In this document: one piece after another, positions 700-18,462 of the stretch
How the letters are laid out: each line of letters begins with the position of its first letter
Position numbering within the stretch: position 1 is the stretch's first letter
DNA from: Escherichia coli
GTDB taxonomy: Bacteria; Pseudomonadota; Gammaproteobacteria; Enterobacterales; Enterobacteriaceae
Assembly: GCA_025544715.1 (NCBI GenBank)
Contig: GCA_025544715.1_4109.5
Length of the DNA: 23,806 nt
Strand: one strand, 5' to 3'
Translations under genes and position numbers: made by a program
Notes under the pieces: generated by a model
Database searches by the model: none
What the model was told of the DNA's origin: nothing
What the model saw: only the letters and a program-made list of their open reading frames with translations

Positions 700-1056
700 A
701 TGGGTATTCAACACATCACGCGTACTACTGACAATGGCGAGATCACTGGCTATCAAGTACAGGGCAAAGTAGCACAATTGCAGTACTGGTTTGTAAAACG
801 TGGATTGATTGCACCGGATCTTGATTATGACCGTGTAGCGTTTATTGATTCTCTTTATGTTGATCCTGATAGTCGGGGCAATGGTGAAGGTAACGAATTA
901 ATGAATGCCTTTATTGATGCCGCCGATGATTCAGATTGTATCATTTTAGAATGCGATACGGGAGAAGATAACGCCTTTAATCTTAAAGAATGGTACGAAG
1001 GTTTCGGATTCGAGGTACTGATCGATAGTGAATATCCTATCATGATTTTATCATAG
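700..1056 (+). CDS. small GNAT-like N-acetyltransferase (118 aa)
   Basis: GAGG RBS; VDPDSRGNGEGNELM resembles GNAT motif A (R-x-x-G-x-G) and C-terminal FNLKEWYEGFGF resembles motif B; judged by eye only. Confidence 0.55.
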   Translation: MGIQHITRTTDNGEITGYQVQGKVAQLQYWFVKRGLIAPDLDYDRVAFIDSLYVDPDSRGNGEGNELMNAFIDAADDSDCIILECDTGEDNAFNLKEWYEGFGFEVLIDSEYPIMILS

Positions 1057-8941: not shown

Positions 8942-8971
8942 ATGATTGATATTAATTTTAAGGGAGTCCCT

Positions 8972-9169
8972 ATGCATATTTTAACTCAAGCAGAACACCA
9001 CGAAAGACTTATCAATAACATGGCTATGATAATGTATAAGTCACATGAACGTGGTATGTCCTATAAGCGTGAATTAGTTATGGCACTATTCATTGGGACT
9101 AACTTTCAGGAAAGGTATGTCAACGATTGGATTTGGTATTTAATTGAAGATATAACGAGTAAACTATGA
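8972..9169 (+). CDS. family-1 paralog 1 (LGTNYQ-motif small protein)
   Basis: AAGGGAG RBS then ATG 8972 (ORF-track start 8942 is upstream of the RBS); C-terminal LFIGTNFQERYV...IEDITSKL. Confidence 0.65.
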   Translation: MHILTQAEHHERLINNMAMIMYKSHERGMSYKRELVMALFIGTNFQERYVNDWIWYLIEDITSKL

Positions 9170-9366
9170 AAATGCGTAAATTAACCGAAAAAGAATATCA
9201 AGCACTGTTACGTAAAAACTACACAAAGATTTATAATACAGACTCACACGTAGAAAGAATGGAGTTATACCTTTTGATTACATTGGGAACTAACTATCAG
9301 GATGCATGGGTAACGAAATATGTGGATACATTGAAAAATAAAACATTGTCCACGAGGAAACAATGA
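9166..9366 (+). CDS. family-1 paralog 2
   Basis: ATGA overlap; ITLGTNYQDAWV motif. Confidence 0.7.
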   Translation: MKMRKLTEKEYQALLRKNYTKIYNTDSHVERMELYLLITLGTNYQDAWVTKYVDTLKNKTLSTRKQ

Positions 9367-9572
9367 AAACTATAACACGAACCCAATCATTCGGACTTAT
9401 CTTGAAATACATGGACTTAATGGTGGATATCAGCAAAGACCTGCCTAAAACTGAAATTGAAGTTGCAAGAGCAGAGATCCGCATGTTGGCTGTACTGAAC
9501 ACAAACCATCAGGAAGATTATGTTGAAGAATGGATTCATTTTTTAATAGAAGATATTAAGAGTAAATTATGA
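9363..9572 (+). CDS. family-1 paralog 3
   Basis: ATGA overlap; AVLNTNHQEDYV...IEDIKSKL. Confidence 0.7.
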   Translation: MKTITRTQSFGLILKYMDLMVDISKDLPKTEIEVARAEIRMLAVLNTNHQEDYVEEWIHFLIEDIKSKL

Positions 9573-9784
9573 TTATTATAGAAAACTCATATCAATATAC
9601 TGAACGCATTGCTGCCAGGCAACTTGAAATCCTCATAATATACGAAGAGACTTCTGATTTAAACTTAGCTGAGGTATTGGAAAATGAAATACTTTTGGGT
9701 GCATTCTTGGGAACTGACTATCAGGAGTATTATGAGCAAAAGTATTTGTCATCTCTTGAGAAATACATCAGGAGCAAATTATGA
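9569..9784 (+). CDS. family-1 paralog 4
   Basis: ATGA overlap; AFLGTDYQEYY motif. Confidence 0.7.
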   Translation: MIIIENSYQYTERIAARQLEILIIYEETSDLNLAEVLENEILLGAFLGTDYQEYYEQKYLSSLEKYIRSKL

Positions 9785-9993
9785 TTTTTTTAACACCTGA
9801 AGAATATAAGAAACGTTTTAATTCTGTCCAGACTGAAATATTACTTATATACCTTTCAAATGCAGACCTTAACTTATCAAGGGCAATGGAGAAGGATTTA
9901 CTTATGGGTGCATTTTTGGATACAGACTTTCAGGAGTATTATGTAGGGAAATACTTAATTGAACTTCAGAACTACATTAAGAGTAAACTATGA
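9781..9993 (+). CDS. family-1 paralog 5
   Basis: ATGA overlap; AFLDTDFQEYYV motif. Confidence 0.7.
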   Translation: MIFLTPEEYKKRFNSVQTEILLIYLSNADLNLSRAMEKDLLMGAFLDTDFQEYYVGKYLIELQNYIKSKL

Positions 9994-10208
9994 AACATTT
10001 AAGTAATATAGAGAAGAATAAAATTATCATAGCTGCAATAAACAAATATTTTACACTTCAACAAAAAGAATGTTTATCTATAAGGGAACACAGAATAAAC
10101 ACCACCGATGTACGCATGATGGCTGTACTGGGGACTAACTTCCAAGAAGGCTATGTTCATGAGCACATCGTTGCACTCACTAATTACATAATGGACAAAT
10201 GTAAATGA
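9990..10208 (+). CDS. family-1 paralog 6
   Basis: ATGA overlap; AVLGTNFQEGYV motif. Confidence 0.7.
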   Translation: MKHLSNIEKNKIIIAAINKYFTLQQKECLSIREHRINTTDVRMMAVLGTNFQEGYVHEHIVALTNYIMDKCK

Positions 10209-10417
10209 AACGTCTTAGCAGCAGAGAATATTCTGCTATATTACATAAAGCTTTACCTGAGTTACAAAACATCGAGACGACCATCCCTGAGCCAACGCGA
10301 GGTGTACTGTTTACGGATTGTATGTTATTACACTTCATGGGAACTAATCACCAAGAATCTATAGTATCATCTCTCATCAACGCACTTAAACTTGAAATAA
10401 GAGACAAATGTAAATGA
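10205..10417 (+). CDS. family-1 paralog 7
   Basis: ATGA overlap; HFMGTNHQESIV motif. Confidence 0.7.
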   Translation: MKRLSSREYSAILHKALPELQNIETTIPEPTRGVLFTDCMLLHFMGTNHQESIVSSLINALKLEIRDKCK

Positions 10418-10671
10418 AACACTTGACAGACGATGAATATTCACTTAGAATTCGAAAGCTCACCCCAGAAGCAAGAGTAATCTACGATGACGATGCACTT
10501 TCATGGGTAGAGATGAAAGTTAAAGTTAATGAGCTATGGTTGCTGTACTTTCTGGGGACTAACTATCAAGAGAAATATTGCACCGATTACATTGAACAAC
10601 TAATGGAACTTATACAGGAAAAACTAAATGATCGAATTGTGGAAAAATATGAAAACTTTATCAAGCACTGA
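10414..10671 (+). CDS. family-1 paralog 8 with C-terminal extension
   Basis: ATGA overlap; YFLGTNYQEKY motif; usual junction stop is missing, giving a 13-aa extension overlapping the next gene. Confidence 0.65.
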   Translation: MKHLTDDEYSLRIRKLTPEARVIYDDDALSWVEMKVKVNELWLLYFLGTNYQEKYCTDYIEQLMELIQEKLNDRIVEKYENFIKH

Positions 10672-10900
10672 GTATCAAACTGCCCTATTCTCTTTACTAA
10701 ACACCCTTCGCAAGAACAATGAACTTTATCCTTCCCCTGAGAATGATGTAGTTAATGGAGACGTGCTCCTTCTTAAATTCATTGGAACTGATAAACAAGA
10801 TACCTTCACTGATCGTTATATCAATGCACTAAGAAACCTTGTAGCATATAAAACCCGCAAGGCCCAAAGAGAATGGAAGAGACAATGCGACAAAGACTAA
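10628..10900 (+). CDS. family-1 paralog 9
   Basis: KFIGTDKQDTF motif; family-like N-terminus begins at in-frame ATG 10649, so the true start may be 10649. Confidence 0.6.
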   Translation: MIELWKNMKTLSSTEYQTALFSLLNTLRKNNELYPSPENDVVNGDVLLLKFIGTDKQDTFTDRYINALRNLVAYKTRKAQREWKRQCDKD

Positions 10901-11136
10901 ATCACAAAATGTATTGTAAACTATTACAATCACTGGCACAGAAACACTATGATACAGTATCTGAAATATTACCCTATGATATCATGCGTTTAATTCATAG
11001 TGAGGCCGAGATGCTTGTACTGATGAGAGGGACTGATAAAACAGCAATAGCCAGATCGATTGAGCAATATATTGATGCACACTGCCAACACATGAGAACC
11101 GAAATCTGGAGGAAAGAGAATGAAACTCCTGAGTAA
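10873..11136 (+). CDS. family-1 paralog 10 (divergent)
   Basis: LMRGTDKTAIARSIEQYI keeps G-T-D and spacing but loses the Q; overlapping frame. Confidence 0.55.
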   Translation: MEETMRQRLNHKMYCKLLQSLAQKHYDTVSEILPYDIMRLIHSEAEMLVLMRGTDKTAIARSIEQYIDAHCQHMRTEIWRKENETPE

Positions 11137-11353
11137 TTATGAATATTATAGTCTGTTGCGAACTATACAAGCAAAAGTTTCTAGTATTTCTTTAAACAAA
11201 TCTATTGCACAAGAGGACAAATGTGTTATAATGGCTGAAATGAAGTTAGCTCTCTTCGTTGGAACAAACTATCAAAACATCTACACTGACGTATTGTTAG
11301 CCAGCCTACGCAACAAGGTGTTATCCAAAAATGAGAAAATTACAAGGTGTTGA
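11120..11353 (+). CDS. family-1 paralog 11
   Basis: MKLLSNYEYYSLLR N-terminus; LFVGTNYQNIY motif. Confidence 0.65.
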   Translation: MKLLSNYEYYSLLRTIQAKVSSISLNKSIAQEDKCVIMAEMKLALFVGTNYQNIYTDVLLASLRNKVLSKNEKITRC

Positions 11354-11549
11354 ATATATTAAGCTTCTGAAAACCTGTGCAAGCAGAAGGAGAAAGATTC
11401 AAAATGATAAAAGCATCTCTATTGACCTTAAGCACGCACTAGTAACTGAACTCTATGTAGGTGCACTCTTAGGCACAGACTATCAACAAATGTATGTAGA
11501 CATGTGGATTGAGGCTCTACTGAAAGAGGTTAAAAGTAAATGCAAATGA
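11331..11549 (+). CDS. family-1 paralog 12
   Basis: ALLGTDYQQMYV...KSKCK. Confidence 0.65.
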   Translation: MRKLQGVEYIKLLKTCASRRRKIQNDKSISIDLKHALVTELYVGALLGTDYQQMYVDMWIEALLKEVKSKCK

Positions 11550-11785
11550 TTAATTTAACTTATATTGAATATCAAAAACGTTTAAATGCATCCAGAGATA
11601 TAAGGATTCAAATATTCAATAACAAAAGATTGAAGCCTGATATCAGGAAAATCAAAATCATAGAAGCAGAGTTGTGCAACTTTTTAGGGACGAACTATCA
11701 GGCAGGTAAGGTAAAAAACTATCTTAGAGAACTCATGAATAGTATTGAAAATAAATGCAAGGATAATGAATATGAAAATGATTAA
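11540..11785 (+). CDS. family-1 paralog 13
   Basis: NFLGTNYQAGKV motif; in-frame ATG 11546 would give the usual ATGA overlap. Confidence 0.65.
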   Translation: MQMINLTYIEYQKRLNASRDIRIQIFNNKRLKPDIRKIKIIEAELCNFLGTNYQAGKVKNYLRELMNSIENKCKDNEYEND

Positions 11786-12011
11786 ATTATCTCAAGCAAA
11801 ATATAAAGAACGCCTGGTGAAAATTGCACCTGGACTTAATGAAATCCATCACGGAGAAGTCATTAAACATGGAAATAAGATGATTATGAAACTTGAGTTA
11901 AAGGTGGGTGCATTCATAGGAACAAACTATCAGGAGTATTATGTAGATGAATACATAATCGCACTTAAGAGATACATTGGAAGAAAACTATATCTACAAA
12001 CTAAAGAATAG
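11772..12011 (+). CDS. family-1 paralog 14
   Basis: ORF-track start 11745 is TTG; ATG 11772 follows AAGGA; AFIGTNYQEYYV motif. Confidence 0.6.
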   Translation: MKMIKLSQAKYKERLVKIAPGLNEIHHGEVIKHGNKMIMKLELKVGAFIGTNYQEYYVDEYIIALKRYIGRKLYLQTKE

Positions 12012-12040
12012 TATTGAAAATAAATGCGAGGATAATGAAC

Positions 12041-12304
12041 ATGAAAATGATTAATTTAAGTAAAGATGAATATACCGAGCGTATGGCAAAAATCTCAACT
12101 AAACGTAACACACTCTATCACAACCCAGAAATTCAACACAGTAAGAAAATGATTATGATGCGTGAGTTAAAGATGGGAGTATTCTTAGGAACAAACTATC
12201 AAGATACAGAAGTAAATCGCTTAATTTCGGAGTTACTAATGGAAATCAGAGGTAAGCTGTACTTTCATCAAATTACCCAACCACTGAGGTGTACTAAGAA
12301 ATGA
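12041..12304 (+). CDS. family-1 paralog 15
   Basis: ORF-track start 12014 is TTG; ATG 12041 follows GAGGA; VFLGTNYQDTEV motif. Confidence 0.6.
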   Translation: MKMINLSKDEYTERMAKISTKRNTLYHNPEIQHSKKMIMMRELKMGVFLGTNYQDTEVNRLISELLMEIRGKLYFHQITQPLRCTKK

Positions 12305-12516
12305 TCAACATCACATTGCAAGAAAGATTCATCCGAATCAACTATGCAATTACCAAATTAGATGCTACTATAGGATTCCAAAGTCTACCATATAAAACCA
12401 GATTGTTATTAGAGTGTGAAGCTAAGTTGGGTGTACTGTTAGGGACGCAACACCAACAACGATATGTGGAAATCTGGATTGACCTTTTAACCCAAAATAT
12501 ATATGAGAGAATGTAA
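12301..12516 (+). CDS. family-1 paralog 16
   Basis: ATGA overlap; VLLGTQHQQRYV motif. Confidence 0.7.
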   Translation: MINITLQERFIRINYAITKLDATIGFQSLPYKTRLLLECEAKLGVLLGTQHQQRYVEIWIDLLTQNIYERM

Positions 12517-12753
12517 ATGCAAAATGAAATGATATACTTAACGAATGAAGAATTTCAAGAGAAGATGTTAAAAACCAAAAACATTAATCTTAAGTTCGTT
12601 CCAAATCAATCAATATCTGAAGTATCTGCAAATGTATTGTTTCAGAAGCTACCATACTTTCTTGGAACTGATAAACAAGAATTTATGGTTCAAAATATGA
12701 TTGAACATCTTATGATGAGTATTAAGGAAAAAGTAAATGCAAAAACAAAATGA
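12517..12753 (+). CDS. family-1 paralog 17
   Basis: starts right after upstream stop; YFLGTDKQEFMV motif; N-terminus MQNEMIYLT shared with next gene. Confidence 0.65.
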   Translation: MQNEMIYLTNEEFQEKMLKTKNINLKFVPNQSISEVSANVLFQKLPYFLGTDKQEFMVQNMIEHLMMSIKEKVNAKTK

Positions 12754-13003
12754 AATGATATACTTAACACCTGCTGAGTTAACAGAAAGACTAGTTAAAT
12801 CCAGAAGATATACAAATCAACTTCCTCACAACCCAAACCAGACCCCAGCCGAAAGGAGTGCAGAAGTTTTATTCCAATCACTACCATACCTTCTTGGAAC
12901 TAATAGACAAGAGTATCATATCGAACGTATAATTAGATATCTTAAAATTACTATTCAGGAAAAGATACATGAACAAGAATATAAAAATCTTTACGGTCAA
13001 TGA
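12737..13003 (+). CDS. family-1 paralog 18
   Basis: YLLGTNRQEYHI motif; N-terminus MQKQNEMIYLT. Confidence 0.65.
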   Translation: MQKQNEMIYLTPAELTERLVKSRRYTNQLPHNPNQTPAERSAEVLFQSLPYLLGTNRQEYHIERIIRYLKITIQEKIHEQEYKNLYGQ

Positions 13004-13226
13004 ATATCATGATATTATAATGAAGACGAATATTGTAAATTCTAAAATTTCAAATACCAAGTTCATCCTTGAACATACATTAGAAGAACGACAATTGATA
13101 TTAGTTGAAGCAAAACTTCTTGCACTATTAGGTTCTAACTATCAAGACGAGTACATAAGAAAACTAATATACCTTTTAACTAAACATATCAGAAAAAAGA
13201 CACATGAAACACTTGACAGACGATGA
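12969..13226 (+). CDS. family-1 paralog 19
   Basis: ALLGSNYQDEYI motif. Confidence 0.65.
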   Translation: MNKNIKIFTVNEYHDIIMKTNIVNSKISNTKFILEHTLEERQLILVEAKLLALLGSNYQDEYIRKLIYLLTKHIRKKTHETLDRR

Positions 13227-13434
13227 ACATGGGCTTATAGTAATGGATGTAATCAACATCGAATACAAAAAGTTGATACGCTACCGTTGTTATGAAGATA
13301 AGCAACTAGTTCTAGCAGAACAGAAGTTGTTTCGACTCTTAAACACAAACTACCAAGCACAATACGAAGAATCGTATATGTACCTTTTGGCGAGGAAAGC
13401 AAAAAGAGATTATGAAAATTTTAAGCAAAGGTGA
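13204..13434 (+). CDS. family-1 paralog 20
   Basis: RLLNTNYQAQY motif; first 24 nt identical to paralog 8 (ATGAAACACTTGACAGACGATGAA). Confidence 0.65.
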   Translation: MKHLTDDEHGLIVMDVINIEYKKLIRYRCYEDKQLVLAEQKLFRLLNTNYQAQYEESYMYLLARKAKRDYENFKQR

Positions 13435-13639
13435 TTCAGTAATATTACTTATAGAGAGTTCAAGTCAATTCTTAAACATATCACTGTCTGATATAGATGA
13501 AGATGATAAAGAAGTACTGAGAGCAGATTTAAGAGTACTGTTACATCTCGGAACAAACCTACAAGAAAGATATGTAGAGTACTACATTGATGAACTTAAA
13601 GAATCAGTACTGAGAAAATGCAAATGCAAATGCGAATGA
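13412..13639 (+). CDS. family-1 paralog 21
   Basis: HLGTNLQERYV motif; C-terminus KCKCKCE encoded by AAATGC hexamer repeat. Confidence 0.65.
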   Translation: MKILSKGDSVILLIESSSQFLNISLSDIDEDDKEVLRADLRVLLHLGTNLQERYVEYYIDELKESVLRKCKCKCE

Positions 13640-13851
13640 TTACCGACGAAGAATACCTAACAATCATAAATGGACTGTTTTTGAAGCTCTTCGTCATTAA
13701 CACATCAGATATACCAGATATGGATAAAATTATTAAGAGAAATGAAATCTATGTTCTAGCTACCCTGGGAACTAACTATCAAGAATACGATATTAATGAT
13801 TATATTAAGACACTTAAACGAGCGATTGAACTAAAATGCCAAAACCACTAG
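13618..13851 (+). CDS. family-1 paralog 22
   Basis: ATLGTNYQEYDI motif; start may be ATG 13636 (ATGA overlap). Confidence 0.6.
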   Translation: MQMQMRMITDEEYLTIINGLFLKLFVINTSDIPDMDKIIKRNEIYVLATLGTNYQEYDINDYIKTLKRAIELKCQNH

Positions 13852-14051
13852 GAACAGCAGAATACATTGAACTCATGGGATTACACTTCTCATCCTTTCA
13901 GAAACTTATGCGAGAATCAAAGAATGATTTAGAATATACCATCAGAGGTTCAGATTTAAGAATGCTTCTCACCCTAGACACAGATTCCCAAGAGCGATTT
14001 GTCAATGAGCACATTAGAGCACTTTTAATGGAAATTCAAAGTAAACTATGA
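13836..14051 (+). CDS. family-1 paralog 23
   Basis: TLDTDSQERFV motif. Confidence 0.65.
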   Translation: MPKPLGTAEYIELMGLHFSSFQKLMRESKNDLEYTIRGSDLRMLLTLDTDSQERFVNEHIRALLMEIQSKL

Positions 14052-14263
14052 AGGTAATATCAAACCAAGAGTACTTGGCACTATTCAGAAAGAATAATCA
14101 TAAATTTATGGCACTTGATACAAGAACTGATATAGGGGAACTTGAAAAAAATCTTTTGCGTTCAGAGATGATAGTACTGACACTCTTAGGAACACAGCAT
14201 CAAGAAAGAACTGTTAATTCACACATAGAAATACTTAAGAAGCTTATACAGGAAAAGTTATGA
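14048..14263 (+). CDS. family-1 paralog 24
   Basis: ATGA overlap; TLLGTQHQERTV motif. Confidence 0.7.
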   Translation: MKVISNQEYLALFRKNNHKFMALDTRTDIGELEKNLLRSEMIVLTLLGTQHQERTVNSHIEILKKLIQEKL

Positions 14264-14481
14264 GAATCATAACACAACAAGATATGTTTAAGTTCACAAG
14301 GGATTATGCATCTGAATTTGATGCTATATTATCAAAAAGTTACAATGACCCTTATACAGAAGATGTACACTACAATGAATTATGGATGTATATACTTTTA
14401 GGTACAAATAAGCAAGAGCAAGCAGTACAGAAGTATTTGACAGCCTTAAGTACTGCTACTGCTAATGGAGTATGTGTTTAA
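14260..14481 (+). CDS. family-1 paralog 25
   Basis: ATGA overlap; ILLGTNKQEQAV motif. Confidence 0.7.
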   Translation: MRIITQQDMFKFTRDYASEFDAILSKSYNDPYTEDVHYNELWMYILLGTNKQEQAVQKYLTALSTATANGVCV

Positions 14482-14725
14482 AATGCTAGTACTGACAGAA
14501 TTAGAAATGGCAATGAGGTTTAATAGATTCAGACATTTACTTAAACCTATACAGAGGATTAAGTGCCCATTTGTAGTGAAACAGGTATTAATTTATGAGC
14601 ATAAGTTATTTGTATCATTAGGTACGAATGAACAAGAGTATTATTTGAAGTTGTACTTAATTACATTAATAGATTTAATTCACTATAAAACCAAACAAGC
14701 TAATAAAGAGAAATATGAAAACTAA
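14465..14725 (+). CDS. family-1 paralog 26
   Basis: VSLGTNEQEYYL motif; alternative start ATG 14483. Confidence 0.6.
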   Translation: MEYVFKMLVLTELEMAMRFNRFRHLLKPIQRIKCPFVVKQVLIYEHKLFVSLGTNEQEYYLKLYLITLIDLIHYKTKQANKEKYEN

Positions 14726-15059
14726 TATACAACTCAAGGTATATAAATCATTTGAACATACATATATCAAAAGTAGTCTATGTAGAGATGTAATGGATTA
14801 CAAGGGTAAGCCATTCACAATTACCTATGATTCTTATGTTAGTGATTTATATATATCATTTGTTAATTACGAAAATAAAATATACAAGCACGTTGATATT
14901 AAAGATTTAAGTACTTTATCACCAGAGGAATACTTTCAGGAATCATTAGTATGGGATTTAGAGTTTCCTATGCCATTAGTACATAAGATGATAGTACTAA
15001 TGAAAGAATCTAAACAGGAGCCTAATAGTGCTTATGAAGAACACATTATTGAGTATTAA
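14715..15059 (+). CDS. family-2 paralog (acidic-FQ motif protein, 114 aa)
   Basis: SPEEYFQESLVWDLEF motif; overlaps end of last family-1 gene. Confidence 0.65.
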   Translation: MKTNIQLKVYKSFEHTYIKSSLCRDVMDYKGKPFTITYDSYVSDLYISFVNYENKIYKHVDIKDLSTLSPEEYFQESLVWDLEFPMPLVHKMIVLMKESKQEPNSAYEEHIIEY

Positions 15060-15140: not shown

Positions 15141-15386
15141 ATGTTAAAATTTTTAAATTTCCTTATCGTCTTGTGTATTGTTCTTGGAATTGCACCGTTT
15201 GTATTAGCGTATCTGGATTCAGATGAAATGCAGAAGATGAATTGTACAAAGACAGGACAGAGTAGAGAAGAGACGGTTATGATACCCGTAACGGTTATTG
15301 TTAATAACATACCAATTACGAACATGATTCCTACCCTAACGACAACGTACCAGTACTCTTGTACAGATGGAGAGAGATGGAGATGA
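15141..15386 (+). CDS. small membrane or secreted protein (81 aa)
   Basis: hydrophobic N-terminus MLKFLNFLIVLCIVLGIAPFVLAYL; stop overlaps next start (ATGA). Confidence 0.5.
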   Translation: MLKFLNFLIVLCIVLGIAPFVLAYLDSDEMQKMNCTKTGQSREETVMIPVTVIVNNIPITNMIPTLTTTYQYSCTDGERWR

Positions 15387-15703
15387 AATTTAATATAGCA
15401 AAAACATCGAATGTATGTATATTTGGTTATGCAGATGAGTTAGGTGATCTTGACATTCTTTTGTACAAAAAGGATGGTGTTATGCATTTCAAGTACCAGG
15501 ATGAAGAGGCAGACAATTATCCTTTACCTAATTTAGTACAAATGCAGGAAGATGAATTATTCCAGTACAGCTTAGTATATGACATTGATATTTGCACGAT
15601 GCCAGTACTAATTAATATTCAAAAAGTGATGCTCGATGTGTTTGATAGGCTAATACAAGGCACACAAGGAAGAACCATATATGTCAATGTACAAGACAAT
15701 TAA
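15383..15703 (+). CDS. family-2 paralog (106 aa)
   Basis: ORF-track start 15359 is TTG; ATG 15383 overlaps upstream stop; QEDELFQYSLVYDIDI motif. Confidence 0.6.
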   Translation: MKFNIAKTSNVCIFGYADELGDLDILLYKKDGVMHFKYQDEEADNYPLPNLVQMQEDELFQYSLVYDIDICTMPVLINIQKVMLDVFDRLIQGTQGRTIYVNVQDN

Positions 15704-15745: not shown

Positions 15746-16012
15746 ATGCAAAACACAAGGTATTATAAAAAAGTAAACCAATATTTGTACGCATCGAAGT
15801 ACAGGGATTTTTGTTTAAAGGGTGGTGATGAAGATTTTTCTTTGCGATTATCAGAATTTAATCTGTTATTTTATCTTGGTACATCGGAACAAGAAGAAAT
15901 GGCACAGAAATTTATCAAGCACCTTGAACAAAAAATTCATATGCAAATTTTGATGCTTAAGGTACATAATGAGATAAACAAATATGAATCCAACAATAGT
16001 ACAGGATCTTAA
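15746..16012 (+). CDS. family-1 paralog, dispersed copy (88 aa)
   Basis: LFYLGTSEQEEMAQKFIKHLEQKIH matches family-1 C-terminal block although located inside the family-2 zone. Confidence 0.6.
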   Translation: MQNTRYYKKVNQYLYASKYRDFCLKGGDEDFSLRLSEFNLLFYLGTSEQEEMAQKFIKHLEQKIHMQILMLKVHNEINKYESNNSTGS

Positions 16013-16521: not shown

Positions 16522-16722
16522 ATGCACACACCGCACAAAGAGCACACAAAGCACAAAAATACAAAAACGATAAATGTTTTAAATGATTCTTTATTGGTGA
16601 GTATAAATTTATATTATAAAATTCATTTAAATGGTGGTATTGAAAATTTTAGTTATTATTTGAGTGCAATATCGCAAGAGCATTTAATATACCAAGATCA
16701 TTTATTGCACCCGAATCCATAA
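16522..16722 (+). CDS. doubtful small ORF (66 aa)
   Basis: no convincing RBS; begins in CA-rich low-complexity DNA; kept only because it is on the coding strand of a 350-bp gap. Confidence 0.25.
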   Translation: MHTPHKEHTKHKNTKTINVLNDSLLVSINLYYKIHLNGGIENFSYYLSAISQEHLIYQDHLLHPNP

Positions 16723-16730
16723 GGCGAATT

Positions 16731-17276
16731 ATGAATGAGATAGAATTATTAGCACACAAGATTAGTACAATAATGCTTATCCTCAATAACAACCATCCTA
16801 TATCGCAGATAGATGGAATCCTGAGTCAGAGGACAGGTGGTAGTTTATATTTGACATTAACAGAGGTTATCGCAAGGAATTACATTGATATTGAAATCGA
16901 GAACAGTGATGCATCAGGAAAGGTTGATGTAGGTGCATTAATCAGTTCAAATCCAGTATCAGCATCACCATTGACACGAAATGTAAGTACAGGATTCGAA
17001 GGGTATTTGTGGTACAATACCAATGATGATTATTTTATATATCAGCATTCAAATACAAATTATGATGAAGACAAATTTAAGTTCATAGACCCTTATGATG
17101 AAGCTGAAGTATTTCAAAAATCATTAATCACAAAACCGCATGAGATGATGTATCTAATGTTATTCAGTACAATGCATTTGAATCCATTAATTAAAGGTTT
17201 AAAATTTTATATTCAATTGAATTTAGTCCATGTAGTTTATGATTTATTAATGCAAGGATATAGTTATGAAGTATAA
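16731..17276 (+). CDS. family-2 paralog, long form (181 aa)
   Basis: DEAEVFQKSLI motif; C-terminus ...VYDLLMQGYSYEV parallels C-terminus of 17887-18462. Confidence 0.65.
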   Translation: MNEIELLAHKISTIMLILNNNHPISQIDGILSQRTGGSLYLTLTEVIARNYIDIEIENSDASGKVDVGALISSNPVSASPLTRNVSTGFEGYLWYNTNDDYFIYQHSNTNYDEDKFKFIDPYDEAEVFQKSLITKPHEMMYLMLFSTMHLNPLIKGLKFYIQLNLVHVVYDLLMQGYSYEV

Positions 17277-17577
17277 AATGCTTTATACATTAACATTAAT
17301 ATATGTAGAATTAGAATCCGATTCAGATGCATGGAATTTAGTTAAAGAGGTCGATACAAATCAATGGTACATGGCAAATTTAGACGCACAGGTTGTTACG
17401 GATTATTTTATAGATTTTAATACATTATCTGAAGAAGAATTTTTCCAAATGCAATTGGTGGTTGACATGTACGGGCATGACATGGTAACATTACGAAATA
17501 TACAGAAAGCCGTTAATGAAATCCAAAGCAAGAAAGATTATGAGGTAGGAGCGTATTATGACATCGACGTACAATGA
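17266..17577 (+). CDS. family-2 paralog (103 aa)
   Basis: LSEEEFFQMQLVVD motif; close paralog of next gene. Confidence 0.7.
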   Translation: MKYKMLYTLTLIYVELESDSDAWNLVKEVDTNQWYMANLDAQVVTDYFIDFNTLSEEEFFQMQLVVDMYGHDMVTLRNIQKAVNEIQSKKDYEVGAYYDIDVQ

Positions 17578-17588
17578 GTACAATAGTT

Positions 17589-17906
17589 ATGAAGTATAAA
17601 ATGCTTAATACAGTATCAGGGATATATGTAGAATTAGAATCCGATTATTCAGATGGATGGAATTTTATTAAACGCCACGATATAAATACATGGTACATGG
17701 CACATTTGGATAATGACGTAATAATAGATAATTTTGTCGATTTTAATACATTATCAGAAGAAGAATTTTTCCAAATGCAATTTGTGCTTGATACAAATGG
17801 ATTTGATTTGCTATTATTAAGGAATATTCAGAAAGCGGTTAATGAATTCATAATCCAAAATAATTCAGGTAAAATGGGGATGTTCCATGATCTGGAAGTA
17901 CAATGA
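17589..17906 (+). CDS. family-2 paralog (105 aa)
   Basis: start placed at ATG 17589, homologous to the start of 17266; LSEEEFFQMQFVLD motif. Confidence 0.65.
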   Translation: MKYKMLNTVSGIYVELESDYSDGWNFIKRHDINTWYMAHLDNDVIIDNFVDFNTLSEEEFFQMQFVLDTNGFDLLLLRNIQKAVNEFIIQNNSGKMGMFHDLEVQ

Positions 17907-18462
17907 AAGCAACGATTACAATGAAATTCAGTACACCTACGCTAATGCAATCCTTATGGGACAAAAATTAGCTTGTATTGTTGCAGCCTTATATAATGCA
18001 CAGAAAGATTACAAGCGTCATATCCACAAATGTATTGGTATTATTCCATCTAAGTACAATACATATATTGCGTGCACGAGTCATTTTGATAAACGATTCA
18101 ATACACCTGATACCCCAAATGCCAGTAGTGTTATTGGTCTTTTGGATTTCGCACCTGGTGCTGTTATTGGAAAGAATGATTTAGAGTACGCATGGTATAA
18201 TAAAAATTCCCCATTAGTAATGGTAAAATATGATACAGAAACGAACAAAACAATAGAGTACAATACATATAAATCAGAGGAAGAATTTTTCCAAGGTTCA
18301 TTGCTTGTGCCAGTGCGTTTGTTGTTTTATAATGTCCTTATTAGTACAGTACACAATAGTCCATTACACAAGAATCACAAAATTAATTTCAATTTTTGTG
18401 CTTATGCGATTGATGGTGTGTATGAGTGTTTAATGGAGGTATTGAGTTATGAAGCTGAATAA
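17887..18462 (+). CDS. family-2 paralog, long form (191 aa)
   Basis: SEEEFFQGSLLV motif; C-terminus ...VYECLMEVLSYEAE. Confidence 0.65.
   Translation: MIWKYNESNDYNEIQYTYANAILMGQKLACIVAALYNAQKDYKRHIHKCIGIIPSKYNTYIACTSHFDKRFNTPDTPNASSVIGLLDFAPGAVIGKNDLEYAWYNKNSPLVMVKYDTETNKTIEYNTYKSEEEFFQGSLLVPVRLLFYNVLISTVHNSPLHKNHKINFNFCAYAIDGVYECLMEVLSYEAE

What the first reader, a model, noticed from the sequence alone, without database searches (positions are those of the whole stretch)
13612..13640. Hexanucleotide repeat at a gene junction creating a KCKCKCE tail
AAATGCAAATGCAAATGCGAATGA at the 13412/13618 junction is three copies of AAATGC. The same unit occurs in one or two copies at other junctions (AAATGCAAATGA at 11540, AAATGTAAATGA at 10205 and 10414). 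Copy-number change of this unit alters both the C-terminal tail of the upstream protein and the number of in-frame ATGs for the downstream one, so it could act as a slip-strand variable junction.
Basis: partly seen in the sequence, partly recalled or inferred. Interest (0 to 1): 0.5.

Follow-up and report, generated by a model that had tools for sequence, protein, structure and literature searches.

The report
Variable six-base repeat at gene junction
A short six-base repeat sits where one small jumbo-phage gene ends and its neighbour begins, and related phages carry three, four or five copies of it, but every change stays in frame, so it looks like an ordinary tolerated microsatellite and not a genetic switch.

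Summary
AAATGC occurs three times at 13616-13633, followed by a degenerate fourth unit, GAATGA, at 13634-13639. This gives the upstream protein a KCKCKCE tail and gives the downstream frame four in-frame ATGs. It is the only 3-copy hexamer in the window (chance about 0.004).

The window comes from an Asteriusvirus-type jumbo coliphage (the PBECO4/121Q/G17 group). The tract lies between two of 27 tandem paralogues, each about 70 aa (PHROG 4148, function unknown). Many of these genes end in K-C-K or S-K-L with an ATGA stop/start overlap, which explains the two-unit copies at 10197, 10406 and 11538.

The junction does vary in length. Of 39 sequences (the window and 38 relatives), 22 have 3 units, 15 have 4 and 2 have 5. 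Five nearly identical haplotypes carry 3, 4 or 5 units, and this is their only indel in about 1.8 kb. Identical 69-aa protein bodies carry one, two or three CK units. The two-unit junctions never vary. TGC/TGA point changes also move the stop codon along the tract, and whole paralogues are gained or lost at this site.

Best reading: a coding microsatellite changed by slippage or unequal exchange, in frame for both genes. Its variability is shown here. A regulatory or switch role is not.

The parts
13616..13633 (+). Three perfect tandem copies of AAATGC. They read K-C three times in the upstream frame and ATG-CAA/ATG-CGA in the downstream frame.
   Evidence: TRF: period 6, 3.8 copies.
13634..13639 (+). 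Degenerate fourth unit, GAATGA. It holds the upstream Glu codon and TGA stop (13637-13639), overlapping an ATG of the downstream frame (13636-13638) as ATGA.
   Evidence: The same terminal unit is found in ERR12263181 and the SRR15217871 group.
13412..13639 (+). Upstream paralogue, 75 aa, PHROG 4148, with the tail RKCKCKCE. It is predicted to form a 4-helix protein, and the tail continues the last helix.
   Evidence: (E = 1.6e-21; pLDDT 96; last 5 residues 78).
13630..13851 (+). Downstream paralogue, PHROG 4148. The start that matches the family and the orthologues is ATG 13630 (MRMITDEEY, against MKIITD.EY in G17) or the ATGA start at 13636. ATGs 13618 and 13624 lie inside the KC codons.
   Evidence: None of the four ATGs has a good Shine-Dalgarno match.
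8942..14725 (+). Tandem array of 26 paralogous genes of about 70 aa (consensus MxxLTxxEY...LGTNxQExYV...IxxK). Thirteen of the junctions are ATGA overlaps. A 27th copy lies at 15746-16012.
15746..16012 (+). The 27th, detached member of the paralogue family.
10197..10208 (+). Two-unit junction AAATGTAAATGA (tail DKCK* with an ATGA start).
10406..10417 (+). Two-unit junction AAATGTAAATGA (tail DKCK* with an ATGA start). Every relative that has the matching junction carries two units.
11538..11549 (+). Two-unit junction AAATGCAAATGA (tail SKCK* with an ATGA start). All 8 relatives examined carry two units.

Best explanation
The tract is a short coding microsatellite, (AAATGM)n. It formed at the stop/start overlap between two neighbouring members of a 27-gene tandem paralogue family in an Asteriusvirus-type jumbo coliphage. 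Many family members end in Lys-Cys-Lys-stop (AAA TGY AAA TGA), and the next gene starts at the ATG inside that sequence. The junction is therefore self-similar with a period of 6. Each unit gives Lys-Cys (TGC) or Lys-stop (TGA) in the upstream frame and an ATG in the downstream frame. Once three or more units were present, replication slippage or unequal exchange within the tract added and removed single units. C/A changes at the sixth position of a unit move the stop codon along the tract. Recombination between the similar junctions of adjacent paralogues also inserts or deletes whole genes at this site. Because the unit is two codons long and carries its own restart codon, every product keeps both ORFs and a stop/start overlap. 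The changes are therefore tolerated, and the only consequence seen is zero to two extra Lys-Cys residues on a C-terminal helix. Shown here: the anatomy, the length polymorphism, the hot-spot behaviour compared with the flanks and with the two-unit junctions, and the gain and loss of a paralogue at the site. Inferred: slippage as the mechanism, termination-reinitiation as the way the downstream gene is translated, and near-neutrality.
For: Anatomy and significance. Identity of the phage: (84-94% identity to 36 Asteriusvirus-type genomes). Paralogue family and variable C-terminal extensions. Allelic series: 22, 15 and 2 sequences with 3, 4 and 5 units. G17, SHEFM2K and CRJP21 (4 units), SP27 (3) and SRR31730431 (5) differ by 0-2 substitutions per 200 nt on each side. 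The tract is their only indel in about 1.8 kb of aligned sequence, against 18 variable columns in the surrounding 1.1 kb. Identical 69-aa protein bodies end in CK (12 contigs), CKCK (56 contigs) or CKCKCK (1 contig). The sequence closest to the window on its right flank (ERR12263181, 2 differences in 200 nt) has a junction exactly one AAATGC shorter. Controls: the two-unit junctions have two units in every relative examined, and the right junction of the extra paralogue is identical in all 11 genomes that carry it among those compared. Stop-codon shifts at constant length: UB against PBECO4, 121Q, ERZ808240 and ERR10789687. Paralogue gain or loss at the site: 233 or 227 nt present in 16 sequences and absent in 23; TH47 matches exactly the product expected from a crossover between the two junctions of an ELP-22-like arrangement (my reading of the sequences). 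No RNA structure or RNA family.
Against: All the variation seen is between isolates or metagenomes, so no mutation rate was measured and nothing is known about a single lysate. Three to five units is a small number for frequent slippage. The array is strongly mosaic, so some of the apparent unit changes could be alleles moved by recombination and not new events. The window's left flank matches no sampled haplotype closely (5-10 differences in 200 nt), so the origin of its own allele is unresolved. No allele has more than 5 units or more than 3 CK units. This could mean that longer tails are selected against, in which case the tail is not fully neutral.
Confidence: 0.7

Rival explanations
1. 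The tract is a functional contingency locus. Changes in unit number tune translation of the downstream paralogue, through the distance or number of restart codons relative to the stop. Alternatively they change the activity of the upstream protein through its Cys-Lys tail, giving the phage population useful heterogeneity.
For: The tract changes much faster than its flanks. It lies exactly on a stop/start overlap with no good Shine-Dalgarno sequence, so translation of the downstream gene probably depends on coupling. The array it belongs to is rapidly evolving and mosaic, as expected of host-interaction genes.
Against: The unit is 6 nt long, so no frameshift and no on/off state is possible. Every allele keeps an ATGA-type overlap or an ATG within a few bases of the stop. 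There are only 3-5 units, far fewer than in classical contingency loci (general knowledge). The tail lies beyond the conserved core, at a position where paralogues carry anything from 0 to more than 20 extra residues. No expression or fitness data exist.
Confidence: 0.08
2. No slippage is involved. The window's 3x AAATGC allele and the other length classes are produced only by homologous or unequal recombination between existing junction alleles and between junctions of adjacent paralogues, together with TGC/TGA point substitutions.
For: The window is mosaic around the tract. Its right flank is closest to ERR12263181 and its left flank to a different group, and identity to any one relative jumps between 71% and 100% from tile to tile. 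A crossover within the tract between a 4-unit G17-type allele and a 3-unit ...AAATGC GAATGA allele would give the window's sequence exactly. TH47 matches a crossover product that deletes the extra paralogue. SD-15_S21 carries a 48-nt hybrid junction and P0018 a hybrid protein tail. Stop-codon shifts at constant length are common.
Against: The 3/4/5 series on haplotypes that are otherwise 99-100% identical for hundreds of bases on both sides needs a change inside the tract. In genomes without the extra paralogue, the nearest similar junction is about 2 kb away, and an exchange with it would delete or duplicate genes, not one unit. Recombination between alleles of different length can move length classes around but cannot create the first difference.
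Confidence: 0.17
3. The length differences are sequencing or assembly artefacts, and the repeat has no biological variability.
For: Several of the records are unverified or are short-read metagenome assemblies. CMSTMSU has a 225-nt insert where its relatives have 227, which suggests errors in that record.
Against: Each main allele recurs in independent assemblies from different laboratories and countries: 4 units in G17, SHEFM2K, CRJP21 and three metagenome contigs, and 3 units in SP27, E9.1, UE-S1 and others. The differences are clean 6-nt steps in a tract with no homopolymer run, which is not a typical error pattern. The protein variants are seen on 12 and 56 separate contigs.
Confidence: 0.02

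Closest known systems
Polymorphic coding simple-sequence repeats (microsatellites) in phage and bacterial genomes
   Same: It is a short tandem repeat inside coding sequence, with a unit length divisible by three. Copy number differs between close relatives, and slippage is the presumed mechanism. Surveys of phage genomes find that hexanucleotide SSRs lie overwhelmingly in coding regions (PMC6426759).
   Different: This tract spans the boundary of two overlapping genes and is read in two frames at once: Lys-Cys or Lys-stop in one, and Met-Gln/Met-Arg/Met-Lys in the other. It arose from the conserved junction of a tandem paralogue family.
Contingency loci (slipped-strand phase variation) of Haemophilus, Neisseria, Campylobacter and others (general knowledge)
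   Same: A tandem repeat that mutates faster than its surroundings and sits at a position that touches translation start and stop signals.
   Different: Classical loci have units or tracts that shift the reading frame or alter promoter spacing. They usually have many more copies and show measured high switching rates with on/off phenotypes. Here the unit is 6 nt, there are 3-5 copies, both frames are always kept, and no phenotype is known.
ATGA stop/start overlaps with translational coupling, as in trpE-trpD and many phage operons (general knowledge)
   Same: The upstream TGA overlaps a downstream ATG. There is no good Shine-Dalgarno sequence, and 13 of the 26 junctions listed use the same 4-nt overlap.
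   Different: The overlap motif is itself tandemly repeated, so there are several equivalent restart codons, and the stop can move from unit to unit through a single base change.
Tandem gene duplication arrays in jumbo phages (noted for phAPEC6 and 121Q in PMC7247149)
   Same: [quoted passage not shown]
   Different: The published remark is general. I found no description of this 27-member PHROG 4148 array or of its junction repeat in the papers searched.

Membership tests
Polymorphic coding microsatellite (SSR) | Three or more head-to-tail copies of a 1-6 nt unit | tested here: met
   Three perfect copies and one degenerate copy of AAATGC. TRF gives period 6 and 3.8 copies.
Polymorphic coding microsatellite (SSR) | Lies in coding sequence, with a unit length that preserves the reading frame | tested here: met
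   The tract lies inside ORF 13412-13639 and the overlapping downstream ORF. A 6-nt unit is two codons.
Polymorphic coding microsatellite (SSR) | Copy number differs among close relatives in whole-unit steps | tested here: met
   3, 4 or 5 units in 22, 15 and 2 sequences. The 3/4/5 series occurs on near-identical haplotypes and is their only indel in about 1.8 kb.
Polymorphic coding microsatellite (SSR) | Changes arise by replication slippage | not testable with these tools
   This needs mutation-accumulation or deep sequencing of clonal stocks. The comparative data fit slippage, but exchange within the tract is not excluded.
Contingency locus / slipped-strand phase variation | A change in repeat number switches expression on or off by frameshift or by altered promoter spacing | tested here: not met
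   All alleles differ by multiples of 6 nt and keep both ORFs open with a stop/start overlap. The tract is not in a promoter spacer.
Contingency locus / slipped-strand phase variation | High switching rate within a clonal population | not testable with these tools
   No read-level or lysate data are available.
Contingency locus / slipped-strand phase variation | The tract mutates faster than the flanking sequence | tested here: met
   At least two length changes occurred among five sequences that show 18 variable columns in the surrounding 1.1 kb. This is roughly a hundred times the per-site substitution level, a rough estimate from few sequences.
Translationally coupled ATGA junction | The stop codon of the upstream gene overlaps the start codon of the downstream gene | tested here: met
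   TGA 13637-13639 overlaps ATG 13636-13638. Thirteen of the 26 junctions listed use the same overlap.
Translationally coupled ATGA junction | Downstream translation depends on upstream translation (termination-reinitiation) | not testable with these tools
   There is only indirect support: weak anti-SD complementarity at all four ATGs (-2.7 to +2.2 kcal/mol) and an unstructured RNA context (z = +0.42).
PHROG 4148 small-protein family | Significant match to the family profile over its full length | tested here: met
   Upstream protein E = 1.6e-21 and downstream protein E = 4.1e-21, each covering about 70 of 74 profile positions. No Pfam family passes its threshold.

The most novel reading that the evidence does not exclude
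The repeated AAATGM junction could be a selected tuning device. By adding or removing restart codons, and by moving the stop with single base changes, the phage population would keep a mixture of coupling efficiencies and Cys-Lys tail lengths for two members of a fast-evolving host-interaction gene array. This would be an in-frame, dual-frame form of contingency locus not described for phages.
Probability: 0.07. Interest if true: 0.6.

Novelty: new member of a known kind. Interest (0 to 1): 0.3.

Why it matters
In itself the tract is a small feature: a tolerated length polymorphism that adds a few Lys-Cys residues to a protein of unknown function. It is useful in three ways. First, it is a clean natural example of how a self-similar stop/start junction (AAA TGY AAA TGA) can seed a microsatellite that is read in two frames and still never breaks either gene. 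Second, the tract and the gain or loss of a paralogue next to it could serve as a strain-typing marker for Asteriusvirus phages, several of which are being studied for therapy. Third, it explains why annotators place the start of the downstream gene at different ATGs in different genomes. The surrounding mosaic array of 27 genes, with gene number differing between isolates, is probably the more interesting object for anyone studying the accessory genes of jumbo phages.

Tried and rejected
1. My first idea, from six relatives, was that the window's third AAATGC is only a TGA-to-TGC stop-loss substitution of a G17-type allele of the same length. That path needs three substitutions. I set it aside when metagenome alleles ending ...AAATGC GAATGA turned up that differ from the window by exactly one unit.

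2. I considered that the window's allele is the product of a crossover that deleted the extra paralogue of a PBECO4-like ancestor. The predicted product differs from the window by one base. This origin remains possible for the GAATSA allele class as a whole, and TH47 fits it exactly, but it is not needed for the window.

3. An exact-match scan of IMG/VR with the left flank returned only 121Q itself. The metagenome scan added 4 usable alleles. The genome scan returned only chance matches in unrelated MAGs.

5. RNA-level explanations: no Rfam family, no tRNA, and no stable local fold. The promoter and terminator scan found no more sites than in shuffled sequence.

6. The literature searches found no description of this array or this junction.

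Full report
**The observation.** The sequence at 13610-13639 reads CTG AGA AAA TGC AAA TGC AAA TGC GAA TGA. AAATGC occurs three times in perfect tandem at 13616-13633, and GAATGA at 13634-13639 is a degenerate fourth unit. ORF 13412-13639 therefore ends ...LRKCKCKCE*. The downstream frame has in-frame ATGs at 13618, 13624, 13630 and 13636, and the last overlaps the stop codon as ATGA. Tandem Repeats Finder reports 13616-13638, period 6, 3.8 copies, score 39. It is the only hexamer with three tandem copies in the 23.8-kb window. Only 7 of 2000 simulated sequences that kept the window's dinucleotide content contained any such repeat.

**What surrounds it.** The window is 84-94% identical to 36 jumbo coliphage and Salmonella phage genomes of the Asteriusvirus group, including PBECO4, 121Q, G17, phAPEC6, slurp01 and UE-S1. 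None of them is the same phage. The tract lies between two members of a tandem array of 27 small paralogous genes on the + strand (8942-14725, plus 15746-16012). These genes encode about 70 aa, share the consensus MxxLTxxEY...LGTNxQExYV...IxxK, and are 13-36% identical to the upstream protein. Both genes next to the tract match PHROG 4148 (function unknown, E about 1e-21), and no Pfam family passes its threshold.

An AlphaFold model built on the 27 paralogues is confident (pLDDT 96). It shows a bundle of four helices, with the KCKCKCE tail as the less confident end of the last helix. Fold searches return only generic helical matches and the family's own members from the same phage group. No RNA family, tRNA or stable RNA fold lies at the site.

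**Why the unit recurs at junctions.** Thirteen of the 26 junctions listed are 4-nt ATGA overlaps. Ten paralogues end ...SKL* or ...EKL*, and six have K-C at the same position (DKCK*, DKCK*, SKCK*, NKCK..., RKCKCKCE*, LKCQNH*). The sequence AAA TGY AAA TGA gives Lys-Cys-Lys-stop in one frame and holds two ATGs in the frame of the next gene. The cited motifs at 10197, 10406 and 11538 are therefore homologous junctions inherited through gene duplication, not independent events. Anti-Shine-Dalgarno complementarity is weak at most paralogue starts and at all four ATGs in the tract. This fits termination-reinitiation coupling, but that is an inference. By alignment with paralogues and orthologues (MKIITD.EY in G17), the homologous start of the downstream gene is ATG 13630 (MRMITDEEY) or the ATGA start at 13636. 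ATGs 13618 and 13624 are by-products of the Lys-Cys codons. Annotators of related genomes chose different ATGs.

**Does the tract vary?** It does. I collected the junction from 22 GenBank relatives, 13 contigs found through the upstream protein's homologues and 4 metagenome contigs. Of these 39 relatives, 38 carried the left anchor and were scored. Between the conserved ...GAATCAGTACTG AGA and the next gene, the 39 sequences scored (the window and these 38 relatives) carry 3 units (22 sequences), 4 units (15, including the window) or 5 units (2).

- The clearest case is a group of near-identical haplotypes. G17, SHEFM2K and CRJP21 have 4 units, SP27 has 3 and SRR31730431 has 5. They differ by 0-2 substitutions per 200 nt on each side.
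- In about 1.8 kb of their alignment the tract is the only indel, while the surrounding 1.1 kb has 18 variable columns.
- At the protein level, identical 69-residue bodies end in CK (12 contigs), CKCK (56 contigs) or CKCKCK (1 contig). Two other protein backbones show the same kind of tail difference.
- The controls behave differently. The two-unit junctions orthologous to 10406 and 11538 have two units in every relative examined. The two-unit right junction of the extra paralogue is identical in all 11 genomes that carry it among those compared.

The tract is thus a local mutational hot spot, and it becomes one only at three or more units. That is what slippage predicts.

**Other processes at the same site.**
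- Base changes at the sixth position of a unit convert TGC (Cys) to TGA or TAA (stop) and back, so the stop moves along the tract with no change in DNA length. Examples are UB against PBECO4, 121Q, ERZ808240 and ERR10789687.
- In 16 sequences a complete extra paralogue (227-233 nt) lies between the same flanks, bounded on its right by CCAATGC AAATGC GAATCA.
- TH47 matches exactly the product expected from a crossover between the left and right junctions of an ELP-22-like arrangement. SD-15_S21 has a 48-nt hybrid junction, and protein P0018 has a hybrid tail. These are my readings of the sequences and are inferences.
- The whole array is mosaic. Identity of the window to any one relative jumps between 71% and 100% from one 150-nt tile to the next.

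**The window's own allele.** AAATGC x3 plus GAATGA, with tail RKCKCKCE, was found in no other sequence, and the protein is absent from the 15-billion-protein collection. The closest sequence on the right flank, ERR12263181 (2 differences in 200 nt), carries AAATGC AAATGC GAATGA, exactly one unit shorter. The left flank has no close match (5-10 differences in 200 nt). The allele could therefore be a one-unit gain, or a crossover inside the tract between a 4-unit G17-type allele and a 3-unit GAATGA-type allele. I cannot tell which.

**Interpretation.** All changes are multiples of six, and every allele keeps both ORFs and a stop/start overlap. The tail sits beyond the conserved core, where paralogues carry 0 to more than 20 extra residues. 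Copy number never exceeds five units. The features that define a phase-variation switch are therefore either absent (no frameshift, no on/off state) or untested (rate within a clone, phenotype). I read the tract as a polymorphic coding microsatellite of a known general kind. Phage SSR surveys find that hexanucleotide repeats lie almost entirely in coding sequence (PMC6426759). Its one unusual detail is that it spans two overlapping genes and is read in two frames. I found no published description of the array or of this junction. The only related remark is a general one on tandem gene duplication in phAPEC6 and 121Q (PMC7247149).

**Scores.** Confidence in the best explanation is 0.7 and interest is 0.3. 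The most novel reading not excluded is a selected tuning device for coupling efficiency or tail length. I give it a probability of about 0.07.

Noticed in passing
window 8942-14725 and 15746-16012: There are 27 tandem paralogues of a small protein of about 70 aa (PHROG 4148, motif LGTNxQE). The protein is confidently predicted as a four-helix bundle, and in BFVD it is found only in Asteriusvirus-type phages. Its function is unknown, and I found no description of the array in the papers searched.
   Followed up: partly
window 13612-13640, compared with L004, L005, L008, L014-L016 and L018-L023: Gene content differs between isolates at this exact junction. Sixteen related sequences carry one extra paralogue (227-233 nt) between the two genes that are adjacent in the window. 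TH47 and SD-15_S21 look like deletion products.
   Followed up: partly
window 12000-15000: The region is strongly mosaic. Identity to any single relative changes between about 71% and 100% from one 150-nt tile to the next, which suggests frequent recombination or gene conversion inside the array.
   Followed up: partly
window 11715-12201: TRF finds a 269-nt-period tandem duplication (1.8 copies, 75% matches). It corresponds to two adjacent paralogues that both begin MKINARIMNMKMI..., a comparatively recent duplication inside the array.
   Followed up: no
window 16533-16567: A 9-nt repeat, GCACAAAAA, occurs four times (81% matches) inside the small ORF 16522-16722. It is another in-frame short tandem repeat.
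   Followed up: no
window 14715-15059 and 15359-15703: Two 114-aa ORFs both match PHROG 13866 (function unknown). They form a second paralogue pair just downstream of the array.
   Followed up: no
window 16731-17276 and 17887-18462; also 17266-17577 and 17574-17906: Two ORFs match PHROG 19795. The two neighbouring ORFs of about 105 aa share the identical stretch TATATGTAGAATTAGAATCCGATT near their starts (17300 and 17623). These are further local duplications.
   Followed up: no
L001, L003 and L006 (UE-S1, G17 and 121Q annotations): Annotators chose different ATGs within the repeat as the start of the downstream gene, giving overlaps of 10 nt, 10 nt and 4 nt. The multiple in-frame ATGs thus cause inconsistent annotation.
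   Followed up: yes
window 700-1056: The only ORF scanned that has a named family match is weakly similar to phage acetyltransferases (PHROG 1249, E = 1e-9). All the other larger ORFs scanned belong to families of unknown function.
   Followed up: no
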